Source of the DNA: an uncultured Candidatus Peribacteria bacterium
GTDB lineage: Bacteria; Patescibacteriota; Gracilibacteria; UBA1369; UBA12473
Assembly: GCA_964491515.1 (NCBI GenBank)
Contig: CAZBGQ010000004.1
Span: 18,326-82,325 of the forward strand
Direction of reading: 5' to 3'
DNA length: 64,000 nucleotides
Shown: piece after piece, positions 11,535-49,713 of the stretch
How positions within the stretch are numbered: position 1 is the stretch's first letter
Layout of the letters: each line of letters begins with the position of its first letter
The notes under the pieces: generated by a model
What the model saw: the letters and a program-made list of their open reading frames with translations, nothing else
Database searches by the model: none
What the model was told of the DNA's origin: nothing
Program-made: the position numbers and the translations under genes

Positions 11535-11538
11535 AATT

Positions 11539-34470: not shown

Positions 34471-36051
34471 CTACGGATTGTATTGGTAGATCTGAGTTTC
34501 CCCATTGTCATAAATAATCTCAAACAAGGCGCTAGTCGAAAATTTCCCCTCCCCTACGAAATCATAGTCTTTGGCACGCATGATAACCCGAGAATCATGC
34601 GTTTTAGGTTTTTCACTTTCAGCGAAACGAGCAATGGCCTCTCTAGTACGAGGAGATATAATTACAAAAAGTTTATCGGCTTTAAATATTTGTTGAGATT
34701 CGGTTAAGAAATCAATGGATTCTGTGGAGAAGAAAGGGTCTGAAAAAATGCTATATATAGTCTTCATTTGGGGTGACCTAAGGTTGAGGTAGCTATGAAG
34801 GCTGGCTTCTTCGTCAGACCAATTTTTTGGCGCTTTATTTTGAAAATAGTTGGAATTGAGTGTGTTGACATGAAACATAGAAGTGAAAATAGTAGCATAA
34901 TCAGAAATGAGGAGATCATTAGATACATCTTGTTTTTCAATCCACTCAAAAGCACTTACCTCACTTGGGATCATGGTTGGAATCACTGCGATATCAGTTG
35001 CATAGGTATACCCTGCTCTGTAAAAAGCAAAAATAAAGTAGCACACCAAGAGGAAGGGCAGAGACTTTTTAAGAAGACTATTTTTAATAGTGGCGTTTGA
35101 ATAATCGTAGCCAATTCCAATCAATAAGAAGCAGGAAAGAAAGAATAGAAAAAACATACGTGTATGTATATGGGTTCCTAATATGATATAAAAGAAAAAT
35201 GAGGTAAAAAGAAGAGAAATAGCTATGCGAATAGAAGATTTAAAATGAGAATGAGAAAACTTGGGATAAAGAATAATTAGCCCAGCAAGTGCAGGTAAAT
35301 AAATGTAAAAATAGCTCCATAGAGTCGCAAGATAATCAGGAGTGTTAGAACTTGAAAAGTTGGAGACTAATAGAAAGAAGTGCGATAAATCTAGGAATGG
35401 CTGAAAGGTGAGCATTAACTTAAGAAGTACAAAGGCACCGATTGAGAGTATTAAGTGCTTTAGGGATAATGGATTAAAATAGTAAATTAGAATAAAAGCG
35501 ATTAACGGAAGAATACCCCACCAAAATAAGAGAGTACAAAGGAGTAAAACCATGAAAACTCTATTACGGTTTCTCCCTAAAAGGAGGGGGATAATGAGGA
35601 GAAGGGATAGGCTTAGGAAATGAGATGGAACCATGTAGGCCTGTCCCGGGAAAAACTGTGGAGAAAGTGAAAATCCAATTAAGATGGCCACAATCAATCC
35701 AGTAGTTTTGCTAAAGCGCTGACCTAATCGATATCCCAGGAAAATCAAAAGAAACAAAACAAATCCATGCATTAGAAGCGTTAAAGTTTCTAAGGGGATA
35801 TTGGTCAAGCTATGTACAATGCCAAGCCAATAAGAATATAATAATGGGCTTCCCTGGAAAGGGGTTAGAATAGCTTCTTTGTTTTCAAAAATAACCATAC
35901 GCCGAGCAATGCCCATATAAGCATATTCGTCGGTTCCATTAGGCAACCAAAAATTCTGGAGATTATTTGCCAAAAAGCTCATAAGCCAAACCACGCTTAA
36001 AAGAGCATAGGACAAAATTTTGCGCGAAGAAGAGGAAATGTGATTAATCAT
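34471..36051 (-). CDS. GT-C-fold glycosyltransferase, ArnT/PMT_2-like (putative)
   Basis: 526 aa, polytopic. The first external loop NGTDEYAYMGIARRMV...TPFQGSPLLYSYW matches the DE..Y...P...PL.YW pattern of GT39/GT83 enzymes. Confidence 0.6.
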   Translation of the reverse strand: MINHISSSSRKILSYALLSVVWLMSFLANNLQNFWLPNGTDEYAYMGIARRMVIFENKEAILTPFQGSPLLYSYWLGIVHSLTNIPLETLTLLMHGFVLFLLIFLGYRLGQRFSKTTGLIVAILIGFSLSPQFFPGQAYMVPSHFLSLSLLLIIPLLLGRNRNRVFMVLLLCTLLFWWGILPLIAFILIYYFNPLSLKHLILSIGAFVLLKLMLTFQPFLDLSHFFLLVSNFSSSNTPDYLATLWSYFYIYLPALAGLIILYPKFSHSHFKSSIRIAISLLFTSFFFYIILGTHIHTRMFFLFFLSCFLLIGIGYDYSNATIKNSLLKKSLPFLLVCYFIFAFYRAGYTYATDIAVIPTMIPSEVSAFEWIEKQDVSNDLLISDYATIFTSMFHVNTLNSNYFQNKAPKNWSDEEASLHSYLNLRSPQMKTIYSIFSDPFFSTESIDFLTESQQIFKADKLFVIISPRTREAIARFAESEKPKTHDSRVIMRAKDYDFVGEGKFSTSALFEIIYDNGETQIYQYNP

Positions 36052-36066
36052 GATTATATCCTAACA

Positions 36067-36780
36067 CTATGCAATCTCGTGAGAAAGGCCCATTGCTTCT
36101 AGGCATGCAACATACTTAGAGCTCTGGCACAGACGGAGGCGTAGGGGGTTCAGGAGGCGCTCTATTCGCTCAGGAGAGCCTACGGGGATCTTACATTCAA
36201 GTATGATTAAGTGGGGGAGATGATGAGCATATTTAAGACGGGGTCTGCGCGCCTGTAGTTGATTGTAATAACCAATATTATAATCAAGAGTGAGACGAAT
36301 TTTACTGTGAGGATCACGGAAATATTCTCGCTGATACTCATTGATTAGAACCGGATCGGATCGGAATAAAAATCGCTCGTATTGTTCTAGTGAAAGATGT
36401 TGGCGGAGTTGGGCTTTTAGTTCTCTGTAGGTGAGTTGATAGATTGGAGTAGTAAGTTGGATTTCGACTCGATCTTTTGAAGAGAAAATATTGGAGCGCT
36501 CTTTGAATTCGAAAAAAATGGTTTTATCTGATGAGTCATACCAGCGAATCCGTGATTTCCAACGACGAGAAATACCAGATTTGTTTTCATCATAGGAAGA
36601 AAAAGAAATATCATCAAAATAGAGTGTCCGATTGGTCGAGACTCGTTTGTGGTGAATAATCGGAAGACAGTTGGAGTTAAGAATTCTGCGTATATAGCTT
36701 AAGTCTCCTCCAATGATCTGAAATTTACGTTCAGCTCGATGGAATGTGACTTGATCCGCTTGGGTGGTGGCTTTAATCAT
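36067..36780 (-). CDS. VTC-domain protein (polyphosphate polymerase-like, CYTH/triphosphate-tunnel fold)
   Basis: FHRAERKFQI, TLYFDD, RRWKSRIRWY and FFEFKER are the basic tunnel-strand motifs of bacterial VTC-domain proteins. No TM helix. Confidence 0.8.
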   Translation of the reverse strand: MIKATTQADQVTFHRAERKFQIIGGDLSYIRRILNSNCLPIIHHKRVSTNRTLYFDDISFSSYDENKSGISRRWKSRIRWYDSSDKTIFFEFKERSNIFSSKDRVEIQLTTPIYQLTYRELKAQLRQHLSLEQYERFLFRSDPVLINEYQREYFRDPHSKIRLTLDYNIGYYNQLQARRPRLKYAHHLPHLIILECKIPVGSPERIERLLNPLRLRLCQSSKYVACLEAMGLSHEIA

Positions 36781-39479
36781 TATAGGTTGGGATTGGTTTC
36801 AACCATTTCAGCAAACACGTCATGTGAGGCGTTGCGATTAGGAGGGAGGAGTACGTCATTCAAATAAACAGTAGATCCTTCATGTACCACCATCTGATCT
36901 GTTGAAATAGTTTTATCCGTTGTGAGAGAGAGTGACGAAGCTCCAAATTCAGATTTTTTTGTATAAGCCGCCAAGTCAAAATAAGTGTTAGCGAGATTTA
37001 CGTCAGAAGCGGTAAGAGATGAAAGATCTTTACTGGTCAGGCCGATAAATGCATCAACAATAGTAGCGCCCGTAAGCGTGACGGTGCTTCCTTCTCCGGC
37101 GCTAACGCCTTTATCTCCAGTTCCTCTTACTAAGAGGTCATTGATCTCTATAACCGTTCCACTGACATCAATACTGTCGTTCCCAATATCTAAAAAGGTT
37201 ATGTCTTCGATGGTACCTTTTGAGAAATCCCCGTCAAAGGCATCTGAAAAAGTTCGAGCTAGGGTCACAGATTTTAGCGCAAATTCAGATTCGACAATAT
37301 TTAAGCCATCTTCTCCGTGCATATCTTGGATAGTTACATTGTCCATATTTACGTTGCTTCGAAAAAATGTAACGCCTCCTGTTAAATTATACGTATCATT
37401 AACTTGTTGTGAGCCACCTGAGAACTGCACATGTTCTAGGGTAGAAGGTGAGTCACCATTTAATACAATGAAAACACCCCAGGGCTCTTCTGGGTTGAGT
37501 GCCTCAATTATTATGGGAGAAGATTCAGTGCCTATAAACTCGAGTGGGGCATAGGAATAGATAGAAACAGAGGGGGCGAGCCGAAGGCGAGCGCCAGGTT
37601 CTGCTTTGAGTGTGTAGCCCGAGGGAATAATTAAGTCATCATTCAAATCCCAGCTCCCAGAGGAGATAGTTACAGTTTTAGAACGTGTATCCTTTATTAT
37701 GAATGGAAAGGATTCTATGTTGGCATTAGACTCCAAGACACGATTTTTTGGGAATGAGGGGGTTAGGGGTGTCCCAGCTACAGTCTCTTGGAAATCCGTT
37801 CCCGAAATACTAAAGTGAACCTCAACATTATGAGGGGTGTCTGTGGACGCTATGTCTAGGCAAATTGATTGATAGTTTGGTGGGGCCAGGTAAAGCGTAG
37901 GCGAAAGCTGGAACTCGTCAAAATAATTAGTGGTTCCACATTGTTGAAGTTCTCTCATTGGAAATAATTTCTCATCGACTTCAACGGAATGAATAGTAAG
38001 CGCAAGGGGAACAAAGTTACCCAGCTGAATTTCAAGGTGATCTAACCCTTCTTCAAGAGATCGAGCCTCGAAACGTGCGTGCAGAAATTGGGGAGGATTG
38101 AATAGTGATCGGATACTATATGCATTAGAGTCAATAGTGTGTCGAATATCTTTGATATTTGTGAAAGGGAATTCTCTCCATAAAAATCCCTGTAAGTGTC
38201 TAAGCTGAGGCTCATAGTGAGACCATAAAGTTTCAACATAATTTTCTTGGCTGACACGCCATAGTTCACTCTGGTAAAGAGGGGAGAATCTTTCATCTTG
38301 CAGGGCGTAGTAAATCAGCCCACGAAAATCAACGATCCCAAGGAGGACTCCTGTTGAACGCTGAACAGCATAATTATCAAAGCTAATAGGCTCAAAATGA
38401 GAAGTAATGGGATTGTAGTAAAAGCGCTCATTATGCCAAAAGTTTCCATGTTCCGCCCCAAATAGTGTTTGAAGTGAAAAATAACGTGCGTACTGTTCAC
38501 AATCAAAAACATCACAAAAGCTCATATTTTCTTGGTCGAACTCTTCTAATAGTGCATAGGCTGATTGTAGCCATTGTGCCTTTTGGGGATCTTCTTGTAT
38601 GTCGTTGAGCTCAAAGGGTTCAAGAGTGGCTGGATTGTGGAGTATGTCATCATGCCCAAAGAGAAGGGTGCTTGCAACAGTTTCTTTCTCGAGGACATTC
38701 ATGTGTGTGGCTCGATCATCCCAGAGAAAGTCTTCATTGTATTTAAAGATTATTGAATCTCGTCGTCCCATACTTTCGACAAGCTCTTTTGTGAAGAATT
38801 CAGAGGTGGCCATTACTCCGATTGATTTCCCATTGAGAATCGCATCAATAAATTCATAGCGTGGCGCAAGTATATTTTCATCTCGTAGTGCTTTGAATAG
38901 AAGCCATTCCCCAAGAAAGTTACGAGTTTTGGGGCTTTGCATTGAGAAGGTTGAAAGACCATTCCATGATTTTGAGTTGCGTATTTTTACGCGAAGAGAG
39001 GGTTTGTCTAAATCTAAGTGGTCGAGCCAGTCCCCCTTTAATCTAATTTTGGTTTTATACTCCCCTCCTTTAGAGGAGCTAATGGTAGCTTTTACATAAT
39101 CATCACTTGAGGAGATTAGAATCCCGACTTGAAGCGCCTCTTGTGCTTTCGCTTCTACTTTTTGCCAATTTTCAAAAGGAACATCTATGTAAATTGTTTC
39201 AAGCTCTTCATTGAAAAGAGGATGTATATAGGATGAAGCATAATGAATGGGGAGAAGTGCGGAATTTTGAAATTGACGAACAAAACGATCTACAAGATAA
39301 GGAAGCGCGTAGCCATACGTCGAATATACAAGGTAGCCAAAGGTTGAGAGAAGAACGAAAAAGAGGCTCAACGCTACTAATATTAGGCGCTTAAATAACC
39401 GACCACGATGACACTGTTTTAAAACAGAAAGAGCTCGGGACCACCAAGTAAAAGTAGATTCGGGGGGGGTAAGTCTCAC
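36780..39479 (-). CDS. CotH kinase-family protein with N-terminal membrane anchor and C-terminal parallel beta-helix-like repeats
   Basis: GTG start 2 nt after the upstream stop. TM anchor LILVALSLFFVLLSTFGYLVY. CotH-like core KIRLKGDWLDHL..KPSLRVKIRNS..FLGEWLLFKALRDENILAPRYEFIDAILNGKSIGVMATSEFF...HGNFWHNERFYYNP. C-terminal repeats NVTIQDMHGEDGLNIV, GNDSIDVSGTVIEINDLLV and GDKGVSAGEGSTVTLTG. Confidence 0.8.
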   Translation of the reverse strand: MRLTPPESTFTWWSRALSVLKQCHRGRLFKRLILVALSLFFVLLSTFGYLVYSTYGYALPYLVDRFVRQFQNSALLPIHYASSYIHPLFNEELETIYIDVPFENWQKVEAKAQEALQVGILISSSDDYVKATISSSKGGEYKTKIRLKGDWLDHLDLDKPSLRVKIRNSKSWNGLSTFSMQSPKTRNFLGEWLLFKALRDENILAPRYEFIDAILNGKSIGVMATSEFFTKELVESMGRRDSIIFKYNEDFLWDDRATHMNVLEKETVASTLLFGHDDILHNPATLEPFELNDIQEDPQKAQWLQSAYALLEEFDQENMSFCDVFDCEQYARYFSLQTLFGAEHGNFWHNERFYYNPITSHFEPISFDNYAVQRSTGVLLGIVDFRGLIYYALQDERFSPLYQSELWRVSQENYVETLWSHYEPQLRHLQGFLWREFPFTNIKDIRHTIDSNAYSIRSLFNPPQFLHARFEARSLEEGLDHLEIQLGNFVPLALTIHSVEVDEKLFPMRELQQCGTTNYFDEFQLSPTLYLAPPNYQSICLDIASTDTPHNVEVHFSISGTDFQETVAGTPLTPSFPKNRVLESNANIESFPFIIKDTRSKTVTISSGSWDLNDDLIIPSGYTLKAEPGARLRLAPSVSIYSYAPLEFIGTESSPIIIEALNPEEPWGVFIVLNGDSPSTLEHVQFSGGSQQVNDTYNLTGGVTFFRSNVNMDNVTIQDMHGEDGLNIVESEFALKSVTLARTFSDAFDGDFSKGTIEDITFLDIGNDSIDVSGTVIEINDLLVRGTGDKGVSAGEGSTVTLTGATIVDAFIGLTSKDLSSLTASDVNLANTYFDLAAYTKKSEFGASSLSLTTDKTISTDQMVVHEGSTVYLNDVLLPPNRNASHDVFAEMVETNPNL

Positions 39480-39481
39480 GT

Positions 39482-40162
39482 TTAGAGAAGATTATCCATA
39501 TCAACAAAAGAGATCAGCGAAGCAGGGAACTCCTTTTTAAGCAGAACGACAAGGTTAAGTAATGACTTTGAATCCTTGGCCTTAATGAGTACACGAGATT
39601 GAAGAACGTCTCCTTCGACATCAATCCGACGCAAATCTGCCACTTTTGTATGCTGATTGATCAAATCTAAGAATTTAGATTCTCCTTTTAAGATGAAATC
39701 CTTGTCTTCCCCTTCAAAAGTAATCATGAAATTATGAGAACTCCTTTTGGTTATAAATCGGTCTCGTACCGTAAGCATAACTGCGATGAATAATACGGCG
39801 ACAATCGTCGGCCAGCGCTGATCTGCTCCTAGGGAGAGTCCAACCGCGAGCGCAAGGAAAAGATAGATCAGTTCTTCCGGCTCCTTAATGGCAGAGCGAA
39901 AACGCACGATAGAAAGCGCTCCAACTAATCCCAGGGAAAGGGCTAGAGAAGATTTAACGACGGAAATGATTAAAATCGTAATTAAAGTAAGAAGCGGGAA
40001 AATGTTAGCTAGGCTCTCTTTATTTGAAAGCGTGTGAGAATAACGCAAGTAAAGCCATCGAACGACAAAGGCCAACGCGGTTCCCAGAATCAGGTTGATT
40101 AGCAAGCTCTCAATTGAGAGGTGAGCAGGTGTTGTGAGGTCTAATTGGAGTAAATCATTCAT
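39482..40162 (-). CDS. DUF4956-family membrane protein
   Basis: About 4 TM helices with SLALSLGLVGALSIVRFRSAIKEPEELIYLFLALAVGLSLGA, the hallmark DUF4956 segment. A C-terminal soluble domain of about 90 aa. Confidence 0.8.
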   Translation of the reverse strand: MNDLLQLDLTTPAHLSIESLLINLILGTALAFVVRWLYLRYSHTLSNKESLANIFPLLTLITILIISVVKSSLALSLGLVGALSIVRFRSAIKEPEELIYLFLALAVGLSLGADQRWPTIVAVLFIAVMLTVRDRFITKRSSHNFMITFEGEDKDFILKGESKFLDLINQHTKVADLRRIDVEGDVLQSRVLIKAKDSKSLLNLVVLLKKEFPASLISFVDMDNLL

Positions 40163-40180: not shown

Positions 40181-41302
40181 TTAAGGTCTATTTGTAAAGG
40201 AGGATTTCAAAAAATCGTCTAGTAAATTAATCGAATATTGAATGTCAAAAGACTCCGCAGCTTTGAGGGCATTTAGGTGCAACGTTTCTTGAAGAGATTT
40301 ATCCTGAAGAACTGTAAGTATTGCCCTTGCAAAGGCTTCCGGTTCTCTTGGGGGCGCAAGGTAGGCTTCTTTCAAATGAGTTAAGATAGCTGTGTTGCCA
40401 GGCACAGAGGTGGTAACAATAGGAGTGCCTGCCGCAAGTGATTCTAGAATGGTAGTGGACATGCCTTCTAATCGGGTGGACATAACCATGAGGTCGAGGA
40501 TACCTAATAATTCGGGGATGTCATTTCGATTACCAAGGAATAAAACTGAATCTTCCAATTTTAAGTTTTGTGCCATTTCTTGGAGAATGGATTTATCGGG
40601 GCCATCTCCGATCAGAAGGAGCCTGGCATTGGGGAATTTCGCTCTAACCATTTTGAAAGCTTTTAACAAATCATCCTGTCCTTTTTCATGCATGCGTAAT
40701 TTCGCCACACATCCGAGGATAGGGGAGTGACCAGTTAAGTTAAGAGATTTTAATTTCGCTACTTTATCTACAGGTCTTTGGAATTTTGTTATTTCTATCC
40801 CATTGGGGACCACGAGAATTCGATCTGGCTTGAAATGGTACATTTTCAAATAGCTCTCTTTAATAACGGGAGAAACCGAAAAAAATGTAGGCACCAAAAA
40901 GGAAGTTAATCGATTTGAGAAATATTGAAGCCAATACAAGCGACGGAACTTTTTATCAGGAACTGAGTGAAGATATCCATAGATTTTTTTGATTCCAAAA
41001 AGTCGTCCAAAAACCCGCCCAAATAAATCTGCATGTGGAAGATGCGTGATCATGGATTGAGGTTTGTGATGTTTAATTAATGTACGAAATTTTCTAATCG
41101 CACCTATGGATAGTACGTGCTTGGCATCTAAATAGTGGACTGGTACTCCTCGGGATTCCAGTTCTTTCCCGAGTTCTCCTCGTTCACGTAAACACACCAC
41201 ATGAGGTGTGTGTTGTGTCATTTTGGGAAGCATTTTCACTAATAAAACCTCGCAGCCTCCAATTTCTAACCCCGTTACAAAATGAAAAACAATAGGCTTC
41301 AT
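40181..41302 (-). CDS. GT-B (family 4) glycosyltransferase
   Basis: GGCEVLLV N-terminal region, and STRLEGMSTTILESLAAGTPIV E-x7-E motif. Confidence 0.85.
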   Translation of the reverse strand: MKPIVFHFVTGLEIGGCEVLLVKMLPKMTQHTPHVVCLRERGELGKELESRGVPVHYLDAKHVLSIGAIRKFRTLIKHHKPQSMITHLPHADLFGRVFGRLFGIKKIYGYLHSVPDKKFRRLYWLQYFSNRLTSFLVPTFFSVSPVIKESYLKMYHFKPDRILVVPNGIEITKFQRPVDKVAKLKSLNLTGHSPILGCVAKLRMHEKGQDDLLKAFKMVRAKFPNARLLLIGDGPDKSILQEMAQNLKLEDSVLFLGNRNDIPELLGILDLMVMSTRLEGMSTTILESLAAGTPIVTTSVPGNTAILTHLKEAYLAPPREPEAFARAILTVLQDKSLQETLHLNALKAAESFDIQYSINLLDDFLKSSFTNRP

Positions 41303-41319
41303 GATGAGAGAATATCAGA

Positions 41320-43149
41320 TTAGAACGTCTGAAGCCATTGTTCCAACATCAAGAGTGTCCACAGCCGCTGACTGTGATCCAAGTCTGTATTCAGATGCTC
41401 ATATACGAGTTTTTCGGTTTGAGCGCGATCGTAATAATCATGGAGTTTTGCGTTGGGAGACAACAGCGCATCTCGAAGGAATTCTTTCATTGGTCCACGG
41501 AACCATTCTCCGATGGGTATTTCAAATCCGCGTTTTCCTTTAAATACTCCTTCTGGGAGTTTGTTTTTAAATACTGATTTAAGGATTCGCTTCCCATTTT
41601 TATAATCTGCTGGCAATTGTGCTAAAAATTCCATCAATTGATGATCCAAGAATGGAGAGCGTCCCTCCAAGCTATAAGCCATCGTAGCCACATCCACCTT
41701 TACTAATAAATCATCTGTTAAGCGGTGGGAAATGTCCACCCACATCAATTGATCCATGGGGTCGTCCCCCTTGAATCCTGCAAATTTCGCTTCCATTAAT
41801 TCTGTTCCATTGAATTGATTTCCTGCAATCTCATCAGGAGAAAAATGAGAAGTGTATGACAAGTATCGTTCAGGTGAAGGTTTGTGAGAAGATTGAAGAA
41901 ACCGTTTCAATCGGAAAGTGAATAAGGACGGTTTAATTCCCAAAAACGGCGAAGCTGAACCTGCTAATAAGCGTTGGAGTGGTTTGGGAATAATCCCATA
42001 TTTCAATGAAAACTGAAAGTATTTGTACATACGGTACCCTAACAAGCTTTCATCTCCTCCATCACCGTTTAAGGCTACGGTCACATGTTTCCGTGTCATT
42101 TGAGCCAAGTAAAAGGAAGGGATTGCGGAGGAGTCGGCATAGGGTTCTTCGTAATGGTCTATGAGCTGAGGGAGAATCTTGAGAGCGTGAGGTTCCACAA
42201 TAAATTCTTGATGATTGGTGTTGAATGTTTGGGCTACTTGACGAGCTAGGGGCAATTCATTGAATTTTTCTTCTTTAAATCCAATGGAAAACGTATTGAT
42301 GGGCTGATCCGAAATCTGACTCATCACTGCAGTCACAGCACTTGAGTCCATTCCTCCACTTAAGAAAACTCCTAGTGGTACATCGCTTATCATGCGTAAG
42401 CGGACGGCCTCTGTGAATTTTGCAAGAAATTGCTCGCCGGCCTCCTCAAAAGAAAGAGTGGATTTTGGAGAGTAGTGAAGTTCCCAATATCGTTCCATGC
42501 GGATGTTACCTTTTTCAAACACTAGAAAATGAGCAGGTGGAAGTTTTTGGATCCCCTTAAATCCTGTGAGTGGGTGAGGGACAAACCCAAAATGCAAATA
42601 CGCCTCGATTGCTTCAGGATCAATTTCCCTCTTCACAGAGTCATCCTTAAGAATCGAACGAATGCAGGATCCAAAAACTAATTTAGTGCCATCATAAAAA
42701 TATTTAAGTGGCTTTTGGCCCACGCGATCGCGTATTAAAATCAATTTCTGTTTAGGTCGGTCCCAAATTGCAATCGCAAACATTCCACGTAAATACTCCA
42801 TGCAGCGTTCTCCATATTTTTCATATAAATAGATAATGACTTCCGTGTCGGATTCAGATTTAAATGAATATCCTTCTTTTTCCATCTCCTTACGAATTTC
42901 ACGATAATTATAAATTTCTCCATTTAGCATCACAGTCACATCGCCATCTTGGCTCTGCATTGGTTGGTGGCCTTTTTCTGACAAATCAATGATCGCCAAT
43001 CTTTTAAATGCAAACCCTGCCGGTCCATCTTTAAAAAGGCCTTCATCGTCGGGCCCCCTGTGAGTCATGGCTGTTGCCATATTCTTTAACAATTCAGAAG
43101 AAACCTCCTTGTTGTAATCGGTAAAAACTTTACCGGCAATTCCACACAT
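41320..43149 (-). CDS. asnB: Glutamine-hydrolysing asparagine synthetase-family amidotransferase (AsnB/WbpS-like)
   Basis: MCGIAG Ntn cysteine start, and SGGMDSS PP-loop. 609 aa. Confidence 0.9.
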   Translation of the reverse strand: MCGIAGKVFTDYNKEVSSELLKNMATAMTHRGPDDEGLFKDGPAGFAFKRLAIIDLSEKGHQPMQSQDGDVTVMLNGEIYNYREIRKEMEKEGYSFKSESDTEVIIYLYEKYGERCMEYLRGMFAIAIWDRPKQKLILIRDRVGQKPLKYFYDGTKLVFGSCIRSILKDDSVKREIDPEAIEAYLHFGFVPHPLTGFKGIQKLPPAHFLVFEKGNIRMERYWELHYSPKSTLSFEEAGEQFLAKFTEAVRLRMISDVPLGVFLSGGMDSSAVTAVMSQISDQPINTFSIGFKEEKFNELPLARQVAQTFNTNHQEFIVEPHALKILPQLIDHYEEPYADSSAIPSFYLAQMTRKHVTVALNGDGGDESLLGYRMYKYFQFSLKYGIIPKPLQRLLAGSASPFLGIKPSLFTFRLKRFLQSSHKPSPERYLSYTSHFSPDEIAGNQFNGTELMEAKFAGFKGDDPMDQLMWVDISHRLTDDLLVKVDVATMAYSLEGRSPFLDHQLMEFLAQLPADYKNGKRILKSVFKNKLPEGVFKGKRGFEIPIGEWFRGPMKEFLRDALLSPNAKLHDYYDRAQTEKLVYEHLNTDLDHSQRLWTLLMLEQWLQTF

Positions 43150-43152
43150 AAA

Positions 43153-43485
43153 TTACTTGTCATCAATATCTTTAAGCGCCAATGCGCGAACCAATTTTTC
43201 GACACGGTTTTGCATACGTTTCACTACTAAATAATTGTGTAGTAGGAGAAGAAAGCCAAATAGAAATGCAATCACCACCACAAAGTCCATGAGTCGAGCA
43301 AATCCCATATGTCTTACATAAGGGCTAACGAATTGAGGGAATAATGATACAAATAAAAATCCAACCCATAAAAGTAACCAGAAAAACAGTTCACGCCCGG
43401 AAAAATCTTTGCGACGATAGTTTGTATAAGAAAAAAAGATGGCCACAAGAGCGAACGCAACGGAGATGATTTGAATGCCGATCAT
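43153..43485 (-). CDS. DUF2304-family small membrane protein
   Basis: 110 aa with 3 TM helices. The YRRKDFSGRELFFWLLLW pattern is typical, and it shows the usual 4-nt-overlap pairing with a polyprenyl-phosphate GT2. Confidence 0.7.
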   Translation of the reverse strand: MIGIQIISVAFALVAIFFSYTNYRRKDFSGRELFFWLLLWVGFLFVSLFPQFVSPYVRHMGFARLMDFVVVIAFLFGFLLLLHNYLVVKRMQNRVEKLVRALALKDIDDK

Positions 43486-44141
43486 AAGCTAAAGCGCCAG
43501 AGAAAAATTTGAAAAAGTAACTTGAGTCCATCCACGACCGTCATGCCTTTGAAGTCATCATGATAGATCGTATCAATATCAATTTGTCTATATTTTAGAT
43601 GATACTTCCCCGTCCGTACAGTCATTTCTGCGTCCGCATGATAACCCTGCGAGCTCCATTTTAGTTTATCGTAGACATCGGAACGAAAGGCTCGATAACC
43701 AGATTGAATATCTTTGATTGTGATGCCAAATAAAACGTGTACCGCAACTTCGAGCGACCGATTGCCTAAGCTACGAACAAAGGGCATTTTGTGGCCGCCC
43801 TTCCGCCCGCCGATAACAATTTGAATGCCCTCATTTTCTATGGGCTTAATAAATCGGGGCATATCCTTGGGAAGATGTTGTCCGTCGCTGTCCATAAAAA
43901 TTATAATGTCAGCCTTGAGCTTGATGGCTGCCTCGGCTCCAGTCTTGAGTGCAGCTGCTTTGCCAAGGTTCACCCGATGACGTAACGCAATAGCACCGGC
44001 TTTTTTAGCAATATTGTGGCTGTCATCACGTGAGCCATCGTCCACCGTGATCACCATGTCGACATAAGCCTTAGCTTCTTGAATTAGTTTCGCTAAATAG
44101 CGAGATTCATTATAAACCGGGAGGACGAGTGCAGTGGTCAT
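43482..44141 (-). CDS. Polyprenyl-phosphate glycosyltransferase (GT2, DPM1/GtrB-like)
   Basis: LVLPVYNESRYL...ITVDDGSRDDS...NLGKAAALKTG...FMDSDGQH. Confidence 0.8.
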   Translation of the reverse strand: MTTALVLPVYNESRYLAKLIQEAKAYVDMVITVDDGSRDDSHNIAKKAGAIALRHRVNLGKAAALKTGAEAAIKLKADIIIFMDSDGQHLPKDMPRFIKPIENEGIQIVIGGRKGGHKMPFVRSLGNRSLEVAVHVLFGITIKDIQSGYRAFRSDVYDKLKWSSQGYHADAEMTVRTGKYHLKYRQIDIDTIYHDDFKGMTVVDGLKLLFQIFLWRFSL

Positions 44142-45079
44142 GCCTTATAAGATTCAAGGGTTTTCCTAAGTCCGTCGATGAGCTTGTGCTGAGGTCTGAA
44201 ATTAAGCAATCGTTGGATTTTACTTACATCTGGGAAACGGTGCTTAATGTCATTGCGAACATCATCCATGAATTCTGGTTTGATAGAATCTTCTTTACCA
44301 GTAAGTTGAATGATGTCTTCGGCCAAATCTAGGATTGTCATAGGACGTCCGGTTCCAACATTGATAACTTCTCCTGCTGTCTTGGGAGACTCCATGGTAA
44401 GAATAGCCGCTTCAATGTTGTCATCAATGAACACAAAATCACGTGTTTGTGTCCCATCTCCAAAAATAGTAGGAGCTTTGCCTTCCAGTATTTGTCGAAT
44501 GAAAATCCCAACCACAAATCCGTAGGCGCTGCTTTCTTGTCCAGGGCCATATACATTGAAGAAACGAAGAGAAGTAGTATCGAGTCCGTGCATTTGGTGA
44601 TAAGCCTCAAGTAGTTTCTCTCCAATAAGTTTAACCACCGCATAGGGAAGTTTGGCATTCACATGGCCATCTTCAACTTCGGGAATTTCTACCGGTTCTC
44701 CGTAGACTTCTGAGCTGGACGCATAAATAACTTTTTTCACATCATTCCGTCGAGAAAGTTCTAATATATTTTGAATTCCTTTTACATCATCTAAAACTGA
44801 GATAGGATCTTCCAATGTGCGTTTTACTCCTACGACCGCCGCATAGTGAAAAACAGTATCAATAGGATGGGCTTCAAACACAGCTTCTAACTGCTCCATC
44901 TTATTGCAGTTTCCTTCTACGAAAGCAATTTGGTCGGCGACATCTTTGAGATTATTTAAATTACCTGTGCTCAAGTCATCAAAACAAATAACCTCATGGC
45001 CGTCTTTTAATAGACGACGACAAAGGTGGCTTCCGATGAAACCCGCACCTCCAGTGACAAGAACGACTCTTTTATTCAT
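44138..45079 (-). CDS. NAD-dependent nucleotide-sugar epimerase (GalE-like SDR)
   Basis: VTGGAGFIGSH, SSSEVYG, YAVVKLIGEKL, and FFNVYGPGQ...GDGTQTRDFVFIDD. Start at MNKRVVLVTGG (45079), 7 nt after the upstream gene end. Confidence 0.8.
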   Translation of the reverse strand: MNKRVVLVTGGAGFIGSHLCRRLLKDGHEVICFDDLSTGNLNNLKDVADQIAFVEGNCNKMEQLEAVFEAHPIDTVFHYAAVVGVKRTLEDPISVLDDVKGIQNILELSRRNDVKKVIYASSSEVYGEPVEIPEVEDGHVNAKLPYAVVKLIGEKLLEAYHQMHGLDTTSLRFFNVYGPGQESSAYGFVVGIFIRQILEGKAPTIFGDGTQTRDFVFIDDNIEAAILTMESPKTAGEVINVGTGRPMTILDLAEDIIQLTGKEDSIKPEFMDDVRNDIKHRFPDVSKIQRLLNFRPQHKLIDGLRKTLESYKA

Positions 45080-45086
45080 GGCGACA

Positions 45087-46253
45087 TCATTGCACAACTT
45101 CATGGAAGAGATCAACGTAAGATCGAAGGATTGTGTGCCATGAGAAATCAGTATCCACCCGTTTGCGTGCAGCATTCCCTAGTTGATCGCATAAATCGCC
45201 ATTCTCCAAAAGACGGTGGAGATATCCCTCCATATCCTGTTTTTGATCAGGTTGGAAAATAAGACCACTTTTTTCATGGGAAATGATTTCAATCGTGCCT
45301 CCTACATCGCTGGCCACAATAGGAAGTCCAGCGGCTGCCGCTTCGAGAATGGAACGTGGTAATCCTTCTGAATGAGAAGGATTGATGAAGAAATCTGACA
45401 ATTGCATGCATTCAATAACTTCAGGCCCGGAGAGCAGTCCTAAGAAACGTACATGCTTGCTAAGTCCGGCTTGCTTGATTTCCGATTCTAGGGTCTCGCG
45501 ATAAACACCTTCGCCTACAATTCCAAGAACTAGATTTGGCTCTTTTTTAATCAATCCCGGCAAATAGGGAAGTACATCTTGAACTCCCTTGGCAAAAACC
45601 AGCCGACCTACAAATAGAAGAATTTTGTCGCTAGAGGAAAAACCCCATTTTTTACGGCGAGAAATCCGCCCTGAGGCAGAAAGCGTTGGAGGAAGGGCTA
45701 CACCATTAGGGATAAAACGAACATTTCGTCCATGTAGATGCTTGATAAATTCACATGCGGCCTGGGACACTCCCACATTTCGTTTAGCTCGACGCACCAC
45801 AAACCATCCCATTGTATGATCAATGAAGCGACTGGCAAGATCTACAAAGCGACTTTGCACTACACTGTGGTAGGCGCCTCGTTCGGTATGGACTAGCGGC
45901 TTGAATCGAACTGTTGCATAGAGAGCGCCCAAAAGAGAGGTTACAAAAAAGCGTGTTTGTGTACTGACCACGTCTACCTTGAGCCGCATAAGTTTGAACA
46001 ACATCCAAAGTGCTTTGGGAGTTGGTGCTACAACAGGATAAGTTCCGCCCAAAAGGTGCCAACCCGGAAGTCTTGTTACATGAACACCGTCGATGATCTC
46101 ATCGGAAGGAGCTTTGGAAACATTATTGGTCACAATCCGTACTGTATGGCCCTCTTTTACCAGTGACTTAGATAGACCATGGAGGCTTTCAACATATCCC
46201 CCACGGTAAGGTAGGTAGTATCCGGCAAAAATAAGAATGGAGAGGGGTTTCAT
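45087..46253 (-). CDS. GT-B (family 4) glycosyltransferase
   Basis: NPSHSEGLPRSILEAAAAGLPIVASDVGG. The start ATG overlaps the ahcY stop by 1 nt (TAATG). Confidence 0.85.
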   Translation of the reverse strand: MKPLSILIFAGYYLPYRGGYVESLHGLSKSLVKEGHTVRIVTNNVSKAPSDEIIDGVHVTRLPGWHLLGGTYPVVAPTPKALWMLFKLMRLKVDVVSTQTRFFVTSLLGALYATVRFKPLVHTERGAYHSVVQSRFVDLASRFIDHTMGWFVVRRAKRNVGVSQAACEFIKHLHGRNVRFIPNGVALPPTLSASGRISRRKKWGFSSSDKILLFVGRLVFAKGVQDVLPYLPGLIKKEPNLVLGIVGEGVYRETLESEIKQAGLSKHVRFLGLLSGPEVIECMQLSDFFINPSHSEGLPRSILEAAAAGLPIVASDVGGTIEIISHEKSGLIFQPDQKQDMEGYLHRLLENGDLCDQLGNAARKRVDTDFSWHTILRSYVDLFHEVVQ

Positions 46254-47557
46254 TAGTAGCGATAATGATCCGGCTTATATGGCCCGTCAACCGGGATTCC
46301 TAAGTAGTCTGCTTGTTCTTGGGAGAGTTTCTCGAGGCGAACTCCAATTTTTTCAAGATGGAGTCGTGCTACTTCTTCGTCTAATTTTTTAGGTAAAACA
46401 AACACGCCAACTTCATAGTCGTCCGGCTTGGTGAAAAGTTCGATTTGAGCCAAAACTTGATTGGTGAAAGAGTTACTCATAACAAAGGAAGGATGACCGG
46501 TGGCACATCCAAGATTGACCAAACGGCCTTGAGCTAAGAGTACAATTTCTTTCCCATCAGGGAATACATATTGATCGACTTGAGGTTTGATATTGATCAG
46601 TTTCATTCGTCCAGTTTCGGCTTCGGTATTGAGCCAATTTACATCGATTTCAAGGTCAAAGTGTCCAATGTTGCACACGATGGCTTGATCCGGCATAGAT
46701 TGAAAGTGCTCTGCTCTGATGATGTCACGACAACCGGTTGTGGTCACAAAAATATTACCTTCTTTAGCGGCATCATCCATGGGCATGACTTCAAATCCTT
46801 CCATGGCTGCTTGTAGGGCAATGATGGGATCGATTTCAGTAATAATGACACGAGCACCAAATCCGCGCATAGAGTGAGCACATCCTTTCCCAACGTCTCC
46901 ATAGCCAGCTACCACTACCACCTTTCCAGCAATCATGACGTCGGTGGCACGCTTGAGCCCATCAGCTAACGATTCTCGGCATCCATACAAATTGTCGAAC
47001 TTACTTTTTGTTACCGAGTCATTGATGTTGATGGCAGGAACTTTGAGCTCACCTTTTTCCATCATTTGGTAAAGGCGATGAACACCTGTTGTGGTTTCTT
47101 CAGTGATGCCTTTTACATCTTTGAGAAGTTCTGGGTATTTTTCATGCATCATGACAGTGAGGTCTCCCCCGTCGTCGAGGATCATGTTGGGAACCCATCC
47201 ATCCGGTCCTTTAATCGTTTGTTCGACACACCAGTTATACTCTTCTTCAGTTTCTCCTTTCCATGCAAAGACAGGAACTCCAATCACCGCAATCGCTGCA
47301 GCTGCGTGATCTTGTGTGGAGTAAATATTACAGCTAGACCAACGAACTTCCGCGCCTAATGCGGTCAAGGTTTCAATCAAAACGGCGGTCTGGATAGTCA
47401 TGTGGATACATCCAGCAATACGGGCTCCAGTTAAGGGCTTCGAATCGCCATAGCGTTCACGTAATGCCATGAGCCCCGGCATTTCTTTTTCAGCAATAGA
47501 AATTTCTTTGCGGCCGAATTCAGCCAAGGCAATGTCAGCAACTTTATAATCAGTCAT
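46253..47557 (-). CDS. ahcY: S-adenosyl-L-homocysteine hydrolase
   Basis: [37 protein letters not shown]..., and the [13 protein letters not shown] motif. Start taken at M16 of the ORF-track product. Confidence 0.95.
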
Positions 47558-47689
47558 TTTTAGGAGGATTAATTTAGGAATAAAGTGCGGATAAAATAAC
47601 ACAGATTATGGGTTGGAGCTACGTGGAATGTATTTGACATTGGCGCCTCCTGTGATAGGTTTTGTTACTAAATATATGCACTTATCGAA

Positions 47690-49572: not shown

Positions 49573-49713
49573 AAATAAAAAAAATCTTTCCGAGGAAAGA
49601 TTAAGGTTTTAGATTATCTTTCCCCTTTCGGGGCGGAATGAGCACCTTGCACCCGTTAGGGGCTGGTTGCTGTGGAATCATAGGGCCGTATCCCTCCTCC
49701 ACTCTTGATAATG
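49573..49713 (-). promoter_or_regulatory. SAM-I (S-box) riboswitch with intrinsic terminator in the metK leader
   Basis: The minus strand reads TTATCAAGAGTGGAGGAGGGATACGGCCCTATGATTCCACAGCAACC...GGTGCTCATTCCGCCCCGAAAGGGGAAAGATAA. The P1 arms TTATC/GATAA, the GGAGGGA..GGCCC.ATGA core and the GCAACC/GGTGC junction motifs all match the S-box consensus. A hairpin ATCTTTC-CGAG-GAAAGAT plus a T8 run follows (49573-49601). Confidence 0.9.

What the first reader, a model, noticed from the sequence alone, without database searches (positions are those of the whole stretch)
36067..40162. DUF4956 / CotH-kinase-beta-helix / VTC (polyP-polymerase-like) trio embedded in a glycosylation operon
Seen in the sequence: three minus-strand genes are packed with a 2-nt gap and a 1-nt overlap.
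1. A 226-aa protein with about 4 TM helices and the DUF4956 hallmark SLGLVGALSIVRFRSAIKEPEEL.
2. An 899-aa protein with a single N-terminal membrane anchor and a CotH-like core (KIRLKGDWLDHL, KPSLRVKIRNS, ILNGKSIGVMATSEFF, HGNFWHNERFYYNP). Its last ~300 aa are short repeats that look like a right-handed parallel beta-helix.
3. A soluble 237-aa VTC/CYTH tunnel domain (ERKF, YFDD, RWKSRIRWY, FFEFKER).

Established knowledge: CotH is an atypical protein kinase of the Bacillus spore coat. The VTC tunnel domain is the catalytic polyphosphate polymerase of yeast Vtc4, which couples synthesis to translocation through a membrane subunit.

Inference: these three families recur as neighbours in genome annotations, but I know of no experimental account of what the bacterial module does. 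The predicted topology is a cytoplasmic tunnel enzyme, a polytopic membrane partner, and a surface-exposed kinase carrying a glycan-binding-type beta-helix. That suggests a system that makes and exports a tri- or polyphosphate donor. The donor would then be used outside the membrane to phosphorylate the S-layer protein or the glycan built by the flanking genes.
Basis: partly seen in the sequence, partly recalled or inferred. Interest (0 to 1): 0.85.

Follow-up and report, generated by a model that had tools for sequence, protein, structure and literature searches.

The report
Putative bacterial polyphosphate export module
Three tightly packed genes encode a yeast-Vtc4-like polyphosphate polymerase, its membrane partner and an outward-facing kinase-like enzyme, a widespread but biochemically uncharacterised bacterial module that may make a phosphate polymer inside the cell and use it on the cell surface.

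Summary
Three minus-strand genes encode DUF4956 (39482-40162), CotH plus beta-helix (36780-39479) and VTC (36067-36780), with a 2-nt gap and a TAATG overlap. All three pass their Pfam thresholds.

The VTC protein keeps every Vtc4 residue shown to be needed for polyphosphate synthesis, including the lysine that marks active Vtc4. DUF4956 and VTC are the conserved core. VTC lies within 5 kb in 52 of 59 DUF4956-anchored loci from many phyla, and natural DUF4956-VTC fusion proteins exist. A CotH-family gene joins them in about 80% of loci.

The CotH body is predicted to face outward. Its canonical catalytic Asp is replaced by a family-conserved His, while both metal ligands are kept. The glycosylation context is not conserved.

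The trio has been described beside Gram-positive pel operons, and a deletion study exists, but no mechanism is known.

Best reading, inferred and at about 0.4 confidence: polyphosphate is made at the membrane, handed outward through DUF4956, and used or attached by the CotH/beta-helix enzyme. This would be a new variant of the VTC principle. Interest is about 0.7.

The parts
39482..40162 (-). DUF4956 membrane protein (226 aa). It has 4-5 TM helices plus a C-terminal soluble domain of about 90 aa that looks ACT-like. The invariant motif is VVKSSLALSLGLVGALSIVRFRxxIKEPEEL...GADQR, with invariant R87, R89 and K93 and nearly invariant K70 and R116.
   Evidence: Pfam PF16316 E=4.8e-17, with a weak MgtC match at E=0.005. 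Hydropathy. Alignment A3. The model of the homologous fusion P0254 shows 5 helices followed by a beta-alpha-beta-beta-alpha-beta domain, but the TM part has only pLDDT 50-80.
36780..39479 (-). CotH-like / beta-helix protein (899 aa, GTG start), a type II membrane-anchored multidomain enzyme.
39321..39389 (-). N-terminal signal-anchor helix of the CotH protein (residues about 31-53). There are 5 K/R in the 15 residues before it and 1 in the 15 after it.
   Evidence: Hydropathy and positive-inside count. 39 of 46 homologues carry an N-terminal anchor or a lipoprotein-type signal.
38100..39197 (-). CotH kinase-like domain (residues about 95-460).
   Evidence: Family profile against PDB: B. cereus CotH 5jd9, E=1.4e-8. 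hhalign probability 96.5%. Foldseek 5jda, E=1.8e-12, TM 0.68.
38376..38450 (-). Catalytic-loop region H344-G-N-F-W-H-N350 ... D368. His replaces the canonical catalytic Asp. The metal-binding Asn and Asp are retained.
   Evidence: Three alignment methods all pair H344 with B. cereus D224, which corresponds to B. subtilis D228. Among 37 beta-helix-type CotH ORFs, H344 is present in 32, N350 in 30 and D368 in 31. D228Q and D251A inactivate B. subtilis CotH (PMC7821199).
37767..38084 (-). Beta-sandwich linker domain (residues about 466-571).
   Evidence: AlphaFold2 secondary structure. No Pfam match.
36840..37700 (-). Right-handed parallel beta-helix (residues about 594-880). Invariant or nearly invariant acidic and basic residues recur about every 22 residues: D724, D746/D749/D751, D768/D771, D789/K790/E796, K817/D818, K841/K842. 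This is a conserved groove, so an enzyme or polymer-binding site.
   Evidence: Foldseek matches include a GH87 glucanase, alginate lyases, the AlgG epimerase, NosD and pectate lyases. PF13229 is present in homologues.
36067..36780 (-). Stand-alone VTC / triphosphate-tunnel protein (237 aa), soluble. It carries R15, E17, K19, R77, R79, K93, Y149, R151, R162, E195, S221 and K222.
   Evidence: Pfam E=1.4e-26. The family profile hits Vtc4 3g3q at E=5.8e-16 and gives a residue-by-residue mapping. The invariant columns come from 70 homologues.
40181..47602 (-). Context only. This is the upstream co-directional array: ahcY, GT4, epimerase, GT2, DUF2304, an AsnB-like amidotransferase and GT4.
   Evidence: Pfam lists. 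An 18-nt gap separates it from DUF4956.
34471..36051 (-). Context only. A 526-aa polytopic membrane protein lies 15 nt downstream of VTC. It has no Pfam family and no homologue next to the trio elsewhere.

Best explanation
The trio is an envelope module built on the VTC principle.

Step 1 (homology-based inference): the soluble Vtc4-like tunnel enzyme makes inorganic polyphosphate, or a short oligophosphate, from a nucleoside triphosphate on the cytoplasmic face of the membrane.

Step 2 (a functional and probably physical partnership is supported by gene adjacency and natural fusions; translocation is inferred): the enzyme works docked on the MgtC-like membrane protein DUF4956. DUF4956, probably as an oligomer, passes the nascent chain across the membrane along its invariant Arg/Lys residues.

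Step 3 (location supported; chemistry inferred): the membrane-anchored, outward-facing CotH-like domain has no access to ATP. It receives this phosphate polymer and either transfers phosphate from it to a cell-surface polymer or attaches it there. That polymer would be held in the conserved groove of the fused beta-helix.

In this genome the acceptor is plausibly the glycan made by the surrounding cluster, or the SLH S-layer protein. The module itself is portable and does not depend on that cluster.

The conserved His in place of the catalytic Asp suggests altered chemistry, such as a different general base or a phospho-His intermediate, rather than ordinary ATP-dependent Ser/Thr phosphorylation.
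For: VTC:
- It is full length above the Pfam threshold.
- The family profile matches Vtc4 at E=5.8e-16.
- All nine Vtc4 residues shown by mutagenesis to be needed for polyP synthesis have invariant or nearly invariant counterparts: K200, R264, R266, K281, Y359, R361, E426, S457 and K458 (10.1101/2023.01.27.525886). K458 distinguishes active Vtc4 from inactive Vtc2/3.
- The VTC domain of a 38%-identical homologue is structurally closer to Vtc4 (E=4e-11) than to the triphosphatases YgiF (6.5e-7) or SaTTM (7e-6).

Coupling of DUF4956 and VTC:
- Of 59 DUF4956-anchored loci with at least 5 kb downstream, 52 have VTC within 5 kb. There were 0 hits in 284 kb of DNA more than 7 kb from the anchor.
- In 42 loci with 6 kb on both sides, 37 have VTC, 33 have a CotH, 28 have both and 0 have neither.
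- Gene order varies while the association persists.
- P0254 and P0263 are natural DUF4956-VTC fusions.
- Some lineages have two DUF4956 paralogues flanking VTC, which recalls the paralogous TM subunits of yeast VTC.
- The stop and start codons overlap in the window.

Extracytoplasmic CotH:
- It has a positive-inside signal anchor.
- 39 of 46 homologues have an anchor or a lipoprotein signal.
- Its active-site residues are conserved at family level.

Precedent and genetics:
- In yeast, polyP synthesis is mechanistically coupled to membrane translocation (PMC9911596).
- Deleting the DUF4956 or the CotH homologue in S. intermedius changes Pel level and aggregation (PMC12345266).
Against: - No biochemical data exist for any bacterial member.
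- DUF4956 is not related to the Vtc1-type channel. It resembles MgtC, which is a regulator and not a known transporter.
- The model of its TM domain is low confidence and monomeric, so no pore could be examined.
- The VTC family keeps a CYTH-like Glu (E17) where Vtc4 has Thr, so a hydrolase activity is not excluded.
- The CotH catalytic Asp is missing.
- 9 of 42 loci have DUF4956+VTC without any CotH, so the pair must work without an outside enzyme.
- Some CotH/beta-helix genes stand without VTC or without both partners.
- The S. intermedius VTC-homologue deletion was not reported among the mutants with reduced aggregation, and the other two phenotypes were partial.
Confidence: 0.4

Rival explanations
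1. Intracellular phosphate or polyphosphate homeostasis module. VTC makes, or turns over, polyP in the cytoplasm. DUF4956 is an MgtC-like membrane anchor and regulator whose ACT-like domain senses a metabolite. It is not a channel. The outward-facing CotH/beta-helix protein is a co-regulated but chemically independent envelope enzyme or sensor.
For: - DUF4956 gives weak but repeated MgtC matches.
- It has an MgtC-type layout of TM helices plus an ACT-like domain (PMC12345266).
- MgtC acts on phosphate metabolism without transporting anything (cited).
- 9 of 42 loci lack any CotH.
- Histidine kinases and a Metallophos phosphoesterase recur nearby.
Against: - It does not explain why a cytoplasmic polymerase is linked in about 80% of loci to an exported kinase-like enzyme, across more than 10 phyla and with shuffled gene order.
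- The invariant Arg/Lys cluster beside the TM helices of DUF4956, and the yeast precedent of obligatory coupling, fit translocation better.
Confidence: 0.25
2. The CotH-like domain is a pseudokinase, acting as a nucleotide-binding, polyP-binding or scaffold module. The real activity of the 899-aa protein would be glycan processing by the beta-helix (lyase, hydrolase or epimerase). VTC and DUF4956 would then only supply or regulate something else.
For: - The canonical catalytic Asp is absent.
- The beta-helix carries a periodic set of invariant Asp, Lys and Glu residues typical of an active-site groove.
- It matches lyases, epimerases and glycosidases by fold.
- A clearly degenerate CotH paralogue exists in Anaerolineae loci.
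Against: - H344, N350, D368, K148, D150 and E191 are each conserved in at least 30 of 37 members. A decayed pseudokinase would not be expected to keep them.
- The metal ligands are intact.
- Asp-type canonical CotH proteins occur in the same kind of locus, so phosphotransfer is the common theme.
- The Foldseek beta-helix matches are generic (E of 1e-3 to 1e-2, apart from one GH87 glucanase at 4e-6).
Confidence: 0.15
3. The VTC protein is a CYTH-type tri- or polyphosphatase, or another NTP-processing tunnel enzyme, and not a polymerase. The module would then degrade or sense phosphate polymers.
For: - The family retains the second Glu of the CYTH ExExK motif (R15-x-E17-x-K19, where Vtc4 has R-x-T-x-K).
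- Tunnel enzymes are functionally diverse, and YgiF and SaTTM are also structural matches.
- A phosphoesterase gene follows VTC in six loci.
Against: - It is a Pfam VTC member, not a CYTH member.
- The best sequence and fold matches are all Vtc4, Vtc2 and Vtc3.
- The first CYTH Glu is Arg, as in Vtc4.
- The Vtc4-specific Lys458 equivalent is invariant.
Confidence: 0.12
4. Chance juxtaposition or annotation artefact.
For: None found.
Against: - The same trio is called on independent contigs.
- The association is conserved across many phyla, with none of these families found in 284 kb of more distant flanking DNA.
- Natural fusions exist.
Confidence: 0.01

Closest known systems
Eukaryotic VTC complex (yeast Vtc4/Vtc3/Vtc1 polyphosphate polymerase-translocase)
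   Same: - It has the same tunnel-domain family, with every polymerase residue conserved.
- The enzyme is tied to a membrane protein, in some bacteria by gene fusion, just as Vtc4 fuses its tunnel domain to TM helices.
- Some lineages have paralogous membrane subunits.
   Different: - There is no SPX regulatory domain.
- The membrane partner is DUF4956 (MgtC-like helices plus an ACT-like domain), not the 3-TM Vtc1-type domain.
- In the fusions the order is membrane domain then tunnel domain, the reverse of Vtc4.
- The target compartment is the cell exterior or envelope rather than a vacuole.
- A third, extracytoplasmic CotH-family enzyme has no counterpart in VTC.
Bacillus CotH spore-coat protein kinase (PDB 5JD9/5JDA)
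   Same: - It is in the same Pfam family and has the same fold.
- The catalytic-loop Asn and the DFG-like Asp are conserved, with the same 18-residue spacing.
   Different: - The catalytic Asp (B. subtilis D228) is replaced by a conserved His, with a one-residue insertion in the loop.
- Extra conserved basic residues are present: R146, K148, R163, R186 and R352.
- The protein is membrane-anchored and exported, and is fused to a beta-sandwich and a beta-helix.
- The organism has no cotB/cotG context.
cotH / polyP-polymerase / DUF4956 accessory genes of Gram-positive pel loci (Whitfield 2020, PMC7112168; S. intermedius SIR_1592-1594, PMC12345266) and C. perfringens NELoc-2 (PMC2879425)
   Same: The same three families are contiguous and lie beside exopolysaccharide genes. 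The function is likewise unknown.
   Different: - There is no pel operon here.
- The CotH partner carries a beta-helix instead of FN3 and has His instead of Asp. The catalytic residue of the Streptococcus protein was not examined here.
- The mBio paper reports not finding the syntenic trio outside pel loci. Here it is found in many phyla and in non-glycan contexts.
MgtC / YhiD family
   Same: It has about five TM helices followed by a cytoplasmic ACT-like domain, and gives weak Pfam MgtC matches.
   Different: The scores are below the Pfam threshold. The DUF4956 signature motif is its own. MgtC is not linked to VTC or CotH genes.
Fam20-type secretory-pathway kinases (Fam20C protein kinase, Fam20B xylose kinase)
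   Same: From established knowledge and PMC7821199: CotH is distantly related to Fam20. These are kinase-fold enzymes that work outside the cytosol, and one of them phosphorylates a glycan.
   Different: Fam20 enzymes use ATP imported into the Golgi. No such supply exists outside a bacterial membrane. No direct sequence match was tested here.

Membership tests
VTC / Vtc4-type polyphosphate polymerase | Match to Pfam VTC (PF09359) above the gathering score, over the full length. | tested here: met
   93.9 bits against a cutoff of 23. Residues 15-230 match profile positions 2-234 of 235.
VTC / Vtc4-type polyphosphate polymerase | Triphosphate and Mn ligands required for polyP synthesis: K200, R264, R266, K281, Y359, R361, E426, S457 and K458. 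| tested here: met
   K19, R77, R79, K93, Y149, R151, E195, S221 and K222 are invariant or nearly invariant in 70 homologues, and they align to those Vtc4 residues.
VTC / Vtc4-type polyphosphate polymerase | Eight-stranded tunnel fold closest to Vtc4. | tested here: inconclusive
   This was shown for the VTC domain of the fusion homologue P0254, which is 38% identical (pLDDT above 90; Foldseek Vtc4 E=4e-11). The window protein itself was not modelled.
VTC / Vtc4-type polyphosphate polymerase | SPX domain and Vtc1-type transmembrane channel subunits. | tested here: not met
   The 237-aa protein has no other domain. The only membrane partner is DUF4956.
VTC / Vtc4-type polyphosphate polymerase | Synthesis of polyP from NTP. 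| not testable with these tools
   This needs biochemistry.
CotH protein kinase | Pfam CotH above the gathering score, and a CotH fold. | tested here: met
   29.9 bits against 23.8. Profile against 5jd9, E=1.4e-8. Foldseek 5jda, E=1.8e-12.
CotH protein kinase | Catalytic Asp (B. subtilis D228; the D228Q mutant is inactive). | tested here: not met
   This position is H344, and it is His in 32 of 37 subfamily members (PMC7821199).
CotH protein kinase | Metal-binding Asn of the catalytic loop and the DFG-like Asp (B. subtilis D251). | tested here: met
   N350 and D368 align with B. cereus N229 and D247 and are conserved.
CotH protein kinase | ATP-dependent Ser/Thr phosphorylation of a protein substrate. 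| not testable with these tools
   This needs biochemistry.
DUF4956 | Pfam PF16316 above the gathering score, plus the signature motif. | tested here: met
   62.6 bits against 30.6. The motif columns are invariant in alignment A3.
MgtC family | Pfam MgtC (PF02308) above the gathering score. | tested here: not met
   17.6 bits against 31.4, E=0.005. The resemblance is in architecture only.
Right-handed parallel beta-helix (PF13229 / CASH) | Beta-helix repeats. | tested here: met
   The window protein's own Pfam score is sub-threshold (15.5 against 25.9). The AlphaFold2 model shows stacked rungs at pLDDT above 90, Foldseek hits beta-helix enzymes, and homologues carry PF13229.
Gram-positive pel accessory set (cotH, polyP polymerase, DUF4956, DUF4832) | Contiguity with a pelDEADAFG operon. 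| tested here: not met
   The Pfam lists for the neighbouring genes show GT2, GT4, an epimerase, AsnB and DUF2304. They show no Pel families and no DUF4832.

The most novel reading that the evidence does not exclude
Bacteria in many phyla possess a third, Vtc4-type route to polyphosphate that is built for export. The DUF4956-VTC pair would synthesise polyP and thread it across the cytoplasmic membrane. His-type and Asp-type CotH enzymes outside the cell would then use this polymer instead of ATP as the phosphoryl or polyphosphoryl donor, to modify surface glycans or proteins. This would be an ATP-independent extracytoplasmic phosphorylation system.
Probability: 0.3. Interest if true: 0.9.

Novelty: new variant of a known kind. 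Interest (0 to 1): 0.7.

Why it matters
- **Bacterial polyP synthesis.** From established knowledge, bacterial polyphosphate synthesis is attributed to PPK1 and PPK2. An active Vtc4-type polymerase family in bacteria would be an unrecognised route. The family has 2,721 cluster representatives at E<=1e-3. It would also bear on the origin of the eukaryotic VTC complex.
- **The donor problem.** An export-coupled version would explain how polyP reaches the cell surface. It would also explain how exported kinase-fold enzymes such as CotH obtain a phosphoryl donor where there is no ATP. That question applies equally to cellulosomal, Bacteroidota and fungal surface CotH proteins.
- **Biofilms and virulence.** The module sits in pathogen loci tied to biofilm and virulence: streptococcal pel and C. 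perfringens NELoc-2.
- **Testability.** The His-for-Asp catalytic loop gives a defined residue to test. Cultured carriers exist: Aquimarina sp. AU58 has the full trio, and Stieleria marina K23_9 has the DUF4956-VTC pair.

Tried and rejected
- Single-sequence phmmer of the three proteins against PDB gave nothing useful. The apparent primase hits for CotH are noise. Family profiles were needed.
- NCBIfam has no model for any of the three proteins.
- PADLOC gave no hits, so a defence-system reading was dropped.
- The word-indexed homologue search found only 6 VTC relatives. The exhaustive search was needed.
- The search for related loci with the VTC alignment failed because it has no conserved 7-10-mer. 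Loci were therefore anchored on DUF4956, so the statistics are conditional on DUF4956 and on the 80 closest of at least 600 matches.
- My first CotH HMM missed canonical Asp-type CotH genes. They surfaced only through clustering of the flanking ORFs, and the counts were corrected.
- I searched for a fourth conserved gene. The 526-aa and 839-aa membrane proteins next to the trio have no homologues in other loci.
- The Nguyen 2016 CotH paper is not held. The B. subtilis to B. cereus residue mapping therefore rests on the unique Asp pair spaced 23 residues apart.
- Promoter and terminator scans were no better than shuffled sequence.
- The organism could not be identified. The nearest named DUF4956 relatives are Patescibacteria and Chloroflexota MAGs.
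I could not check whether the extra Arg/Lys residues line the CotH pocket, or whether DUF4956 forms a pore.

Full report
**1.

The six-frame ORF list shows three adjacent minus-strand ORFs:
- 39482-40162, 226 aa
- 36780-39479, 899 aa, GTG start
- 36067-36780, 237 aa

Two nucleotides separate the first stop from the second start. The second stop overlaps the third start as TAATG. Gene calls on three independent public contigs that carry the identical 899-aa protein give the same three products.

Pfam places the proteins above the curated thresholds in DUF4956 (E=4.8e-17), CotH (E=5.3e-7, residues 145-370) and VTC (E=1.4e-26, full length). NCBIfam and PADLOC have nothing for them.

**2. The VTC protein**

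It is soluble, with no hydrophobic segment. An exhaustive HMMER search found 2,721 cluster representatives at E<=1e-3, nearly all stand-alone proteins of 220-260 aa.

An alignment of 70 of them has these invariant columns: R15, E17, K19, Y54, D56, R73, K75, R77, R79, W80, E91, K93, K102, R151, R162, T164, D166, E195, S221 and K222.

A profile of this alignment hits the yeast Vtc4 catalytic domain (3g3q) at E=5.8e-16. The printed alignment gives this mapping:

| Window VTC | Yeast Vtc4 |
|---|---|
| K19 | K200 |
| R77 / R79 | R264 / R266 |
| K93 | K281 |
| Y149 / R151 | Y359 / R361 |
| R162 | R373 |
| E195 | E426 |
| S221 / K222 | S457 / K458 |

According to the VTC cryo-EM study, K200, R264, R266, K281, R361, K458, S457 and Y359 hold the triphosphate and E426 holds Mn2+. 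Mutating the eight triphosphate-binding residues lowers polyP. K458 is the one residue that differs in the inactive Vtc2 and Vtc3 (10.1101/2023.01.27.525886).

So the bacterial family carries the complete polymerase set, including the 'active subunit' lysine. One difference points the other way: the family keeps a Glu (E17) where Vtc4 has Thr. That residue is CYTH-like, so hydrolytic activity cannot be excluded.

The modelled VTC domain of a 38%-identical family member is closer in fold to Vtc4 (E=4e-11) than to the triphosphatases YgiF (6.5e-7) and SaTTM (7e-6).

**3. DUF4956 and its link to VTC**

DUF4956 is strongly conserved.

Hydropathy shows four to five hydrophobic segments followed by a soluble tail of about 90 residues. 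The invariant core is VVKSSLALSLGLVGALSIVRFRxxIKEPEEL...GADQR, with invariant R87, R89 and K93.

Two representatives from the VTC search, P0254 (504 aa) and P0263 (398 aa), are natural fusions of a complete DUF4956 to a complete VTC domain. The AlphaFold2 model of P0254 shows:
- five helices,
- a beta-alpha-beta-beta-alpha-beta (ACT-like) domain,
- a disordered linker,
- a confident tunnel domain.

The helical part has only pLDDT 50-80, so no pore can be judged.

Weak MgtC matches recur. Authors working on the streptococcal homologue also describe it as an MgtC-type membrane domain plus an ACT domain (PMC12345266).

**4. Neighbourhood statistics**

I fetched 80 DUF4956-anchored loci from species-representative genomes. 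They come from Chloroflexota, Planctomycetota, Acidobacteriota, Myxococcota, Omnitrophota, Proteobacteria, Bacteroidota, Elusimicrobiota, CPR and others. I scanned all their ORFs with HMMs built from my alignments.

| Locus set | n | VTC nearby | A1-type CotH | Beta-helix | Any CotH | VTC + CotH | VTC only | CotH only | Neither |
|---|---|---|---|---|---|---|---|---|---|
| At least 5 kb downstream | 59 | 52 | 35 | 30 | not counted | 31 | 21 | 4 | 3 |
| At least 6 kb on both sides, second CotH type included | 42 | 37 | 24 | not counted | 33 | 28 | 9 | 5 | 0 |

None of these families appears in 284 kb of flanking DNA more than 7 kb from the anchor.

Clustering the remaining flanking ORFs revealed a second, canonical type of CotH that my first HMM had missed. 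It carries the motif DWPxHN...WDxD and the CHB_HEX_C and Fn3_assoc domains. The second row of the table includes it.

The arrangements vary:
- DUF4956-CotH/beta-helix-VTC, as in the window and the commonest form
- CotH/beta-helix-DUF4956-VTC
- CotH and beta-helix as separate genes around DUF4956, in a Patescibacteria contig
- DUF4956-degenerate CotH-VTC-CotH/beta-helix, in Anaerolineae
- DUF4956-VTC alone, in Planctomycetota including Stieleria marina
- VTC flanked by two DUF4956 paralogues, in Marinacidobacterales

Starting instead from CotH/beta-helix homologues:
- two of the four homologues checked have the full trio (P0002 and Aquimarina sp. AU58),
- one has only DUF4956,
- one, which lacks an N-terminal anchor, has neither.

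The conserved core is therefore the DUF4956-VTC pair. A CotH-family enzyme is a frequent but dispensable third member.

**5. The 899-aa protein**

A profile of 46 homologues hits B. cereus CotH at E=1.4e-8, and hhalign gives 96.5% probability. The AlphaFold2 model (mean pLDDT 88.5) matches 5JDA at E=1.8e-12 with TM 0.68.

Three alignment methods place invariant H344 opposite B. cereus D224. D224 and D247 are the only Asp pair 23 residues apart in that sequence. They therefore correspond to B. subtilis D228 and D251, whose mutation inactivates the kinase (PMC7821199).

N350 and D368 align with the catalytic-loop Asn and the DFG-like Asp, with the same 18-residue spacing. Among 37 CotH/beta-helix ORFs, H344 is present in 32, N350 in 30, D368 in 31, K148 in 32 and D150 in 33.

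This is not a decayed pseudokinase. It is a conserved variant with His in the catalytic-base position.

**6. Topology and the beta-helix**

The single hydrophobic helix (about residues 31-53) is preceded by 5 Lys/Arg in the 15 residues before it and followed by 1. In the family, 39 of 46 members have such an anchor. Several Bacteroidota members instead have a lipoprotein-type signal with a Cys. The body of the protein is therefore predicted to be extracytoplasmic.

After a beta-sandwich (about residues 466-571), residues 594-880 form a confident right-handed beta-helix. Its Foldseek matches are polysaccharide-active beta-helix enzymes and NosD. All the matches are weak and generic.

The helix carries invariant Asp, Lys and Glu residues that recur about every 22 residues: D724, D746/749/751, D768, D789/K790/E796, K817/D818 and K842. 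They would stack along one face, as in an active-site or polymer-binding groove.

**7. Context**

In the window the trio sits inside a surface-glycan island of about 50 kb. The island contains:
- nucleotide-sugar enzymes,
- many GT2 and GT4 glycosyltransferases,
- an initiating Bac_transf transferase,
- a Wzy_C ligase,
- GT-C-like membrane proteins,
- a 1,287-aa SLH protein at 4272-8135.

This context is not conserved:
- The closest trio (CotH 48%, DUF4956 76%, VTC 66% identity) lies between sod/uvrB and unrelated genes.
- A Patescibacteria trio lies beside ribosomal genes.
- Others, including the Aquimarina locus, are again in glycan clusters.
- Across the 83 distinct loci examined, glycan-gene clusters recur in only a minority: a GT2 cluster in 8 loci, a GT4 cluster in 5 and an epimerase cluster in 6.

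**8. What is already known**

- Whitfield et al. listed cotH, a poly-phosphate polymerase, DUF4956 and DUF4832 as accessory genes of pel loci in streptococci, clostridia and bifidobacteria. They proposed a regulatory kinase role (PMC7112168).
- C. perfringens NELoc-2 contains VTC-domain genes, each paired with a cytoplasmic-membrane gene annotated as tubulin/FtsZ GTPase, plus a CotH gene (PMC2879425).
- In S. intermedius, deleting the DUF4956 or the CotH homologue reduced aggregation by more than 50% in one medium and changed Pel levels. The VTC deletion is not listed among the mutants with reduced aggregation. The authors state that the mechanism remains to be determined, and that they did not find the syntenic trio outside pel loci (PMC12345266).
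- I found no paper on the biochemistry of a bacterial VTC protein or of DUF4956.

**9. Interpretation**

Shown here:
- family membership,
- a complete Vtc4 catalytic set,
- DUF4956-VTC coupling through adjacency and fusion,
- the predicted outward location of the CotH body,
- the His-for-Asp substitution,
- a portable module.

Inferred:
- VTC polymerises phosphate.
- DUF4956 conducts the product outward.
- The CotH/beta-helix enzyme uses or attaches it on a surface polymer.

The yeast precedent makes the first two steps plausible, because there synthesis is mechanistically coupled to translocation (PMC9911596). Against this, DUF4956 is unrelated to the Vtc1 channel and resembles MgtC, which is a regulator.

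I put about 0.4 on the full chain and about 0.6 on the narrower claim that DUF4956-VTC is a membrane-bound polyP-synthesising pair.

The rivals are:
- an intracellular phosphate-homeostasis module with an independent outside enzyme (0.25),
- a pseudokinase or glycan-processing role for the 899-aa protein (0.15),
- a phosphatase rather than polymerase role for VTC (0.12).

**10. Verdict**

The association is already in the literature, but it is functionally unsolved.

This analysis adds:
- the fusions and the core-pair structure,
- the intact polymerase residues,
- the conserved catalytic-loop His,
- the module's wide distribution outside pel and glycan loci.

The module is best classed as a new variant of the VTC principle. 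Interest is about 0.7.

Noticed in passing
window 49611-49714 (-), 48414-49556 (-), 46253-47602 (-): A SAM-I riboswitch (74.8 bits) sits upstream of metK. The AdoHcy hydrolase gene (ahcY) then heads the minus-strand glycosyltransferase array that runs into the trio. SAM-cycle genes are therefore physically tied to the glycan cluster, which also contains methyltransferases.
   Followed up: partly
window 4272-8135 (+): A 1,287-aa protein with three SLH domains (E=3e-29) is the likely S-layer or cell-wall-anchored surface protein of this organism. It lies at the edge of the glycan island.
   Followed up: partly
window 11479-14082 (+), 31923-34442 (+), 34471-36051 (-): Three large polytopic membrane proteins (867, 839 and 526 aa) have no Pfam family. 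They are probably GT-C-like transferases or polymerases. The 526-aa one lies 15 nt downstream of VTC. The 526-aa, 839-aa and 867-aa proteins were all queried against the related loci and none has a homologue next to the trio elsewhere.
   Followed up: partly
window 12000-36000: G+C drops to 0.37-0.40, against 0.43-0.47 in the flanks, and GC skew is strongly positive (up to +0.31). The central part of the glycan island is therefore compositionally distinct.
   Followed up: no
L014, L026, L040, L052, L068, L073 (e.g. L068:3877-4974): In six loci with the window-type architecture, an ORF from one homologous cluster lies within 6 kb of the module. Its one scanned example, L068:3877-4974, starts at the end of the VTC gene and is a calcineurin-like phosphoesterase (Metallophos). 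It could be a polyphosphate- or phosphoester-processing partner.
   Followed up: partly
L013, L023, L045, L046, L048, L049, L070: Anaerolineae loci carry two CotH paralogues. One, between DUF4956 and VTC, has lost H344, N350 and D368 and is degenerate. The other is an intact CotH/beta-helix gene after VTC.
   Followed up: partly
L019, L028, L035, L042, L047, L059, L061: In Marinacidobacterales genomes, VTC is accompanied by two DUF4956 paralogues. This suggests a hetero-oligomeric membrane partner.
   Followed up: no
L007, L009, L010, L021, L028, L030, L039 and others: Canonical Asp-type CotH proteins (motif DWPxHN...WDxD, with CHB_HEX_C_1 and Fn3_assoc domains) lie next to DUF4956 in more than 20 loci. 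The stop-to-stop ORF in L028 also gives an arylsulfotransferase match, which may be read-through into a neighbouring gene.
   Followed up: partly
L006 (Patescibacteria contig, 6397-11318): Here the CotH domain (530 aa) and the beta-helix protein (643 aa) are separate genes on either side of DUF4956, followed by VTC. The whole module sits beside the ribosomal-protein and rpoA operon.
   Followed up: partly
window 29885-30553 and 30492-31160 (+): Two 222-aa ORFs overlap by 62 nt. The second has a TTG start and is a HAD hydrolase. Its real start is probably a downstream codon: other gene calls give 220 aa.
   Followed up: no
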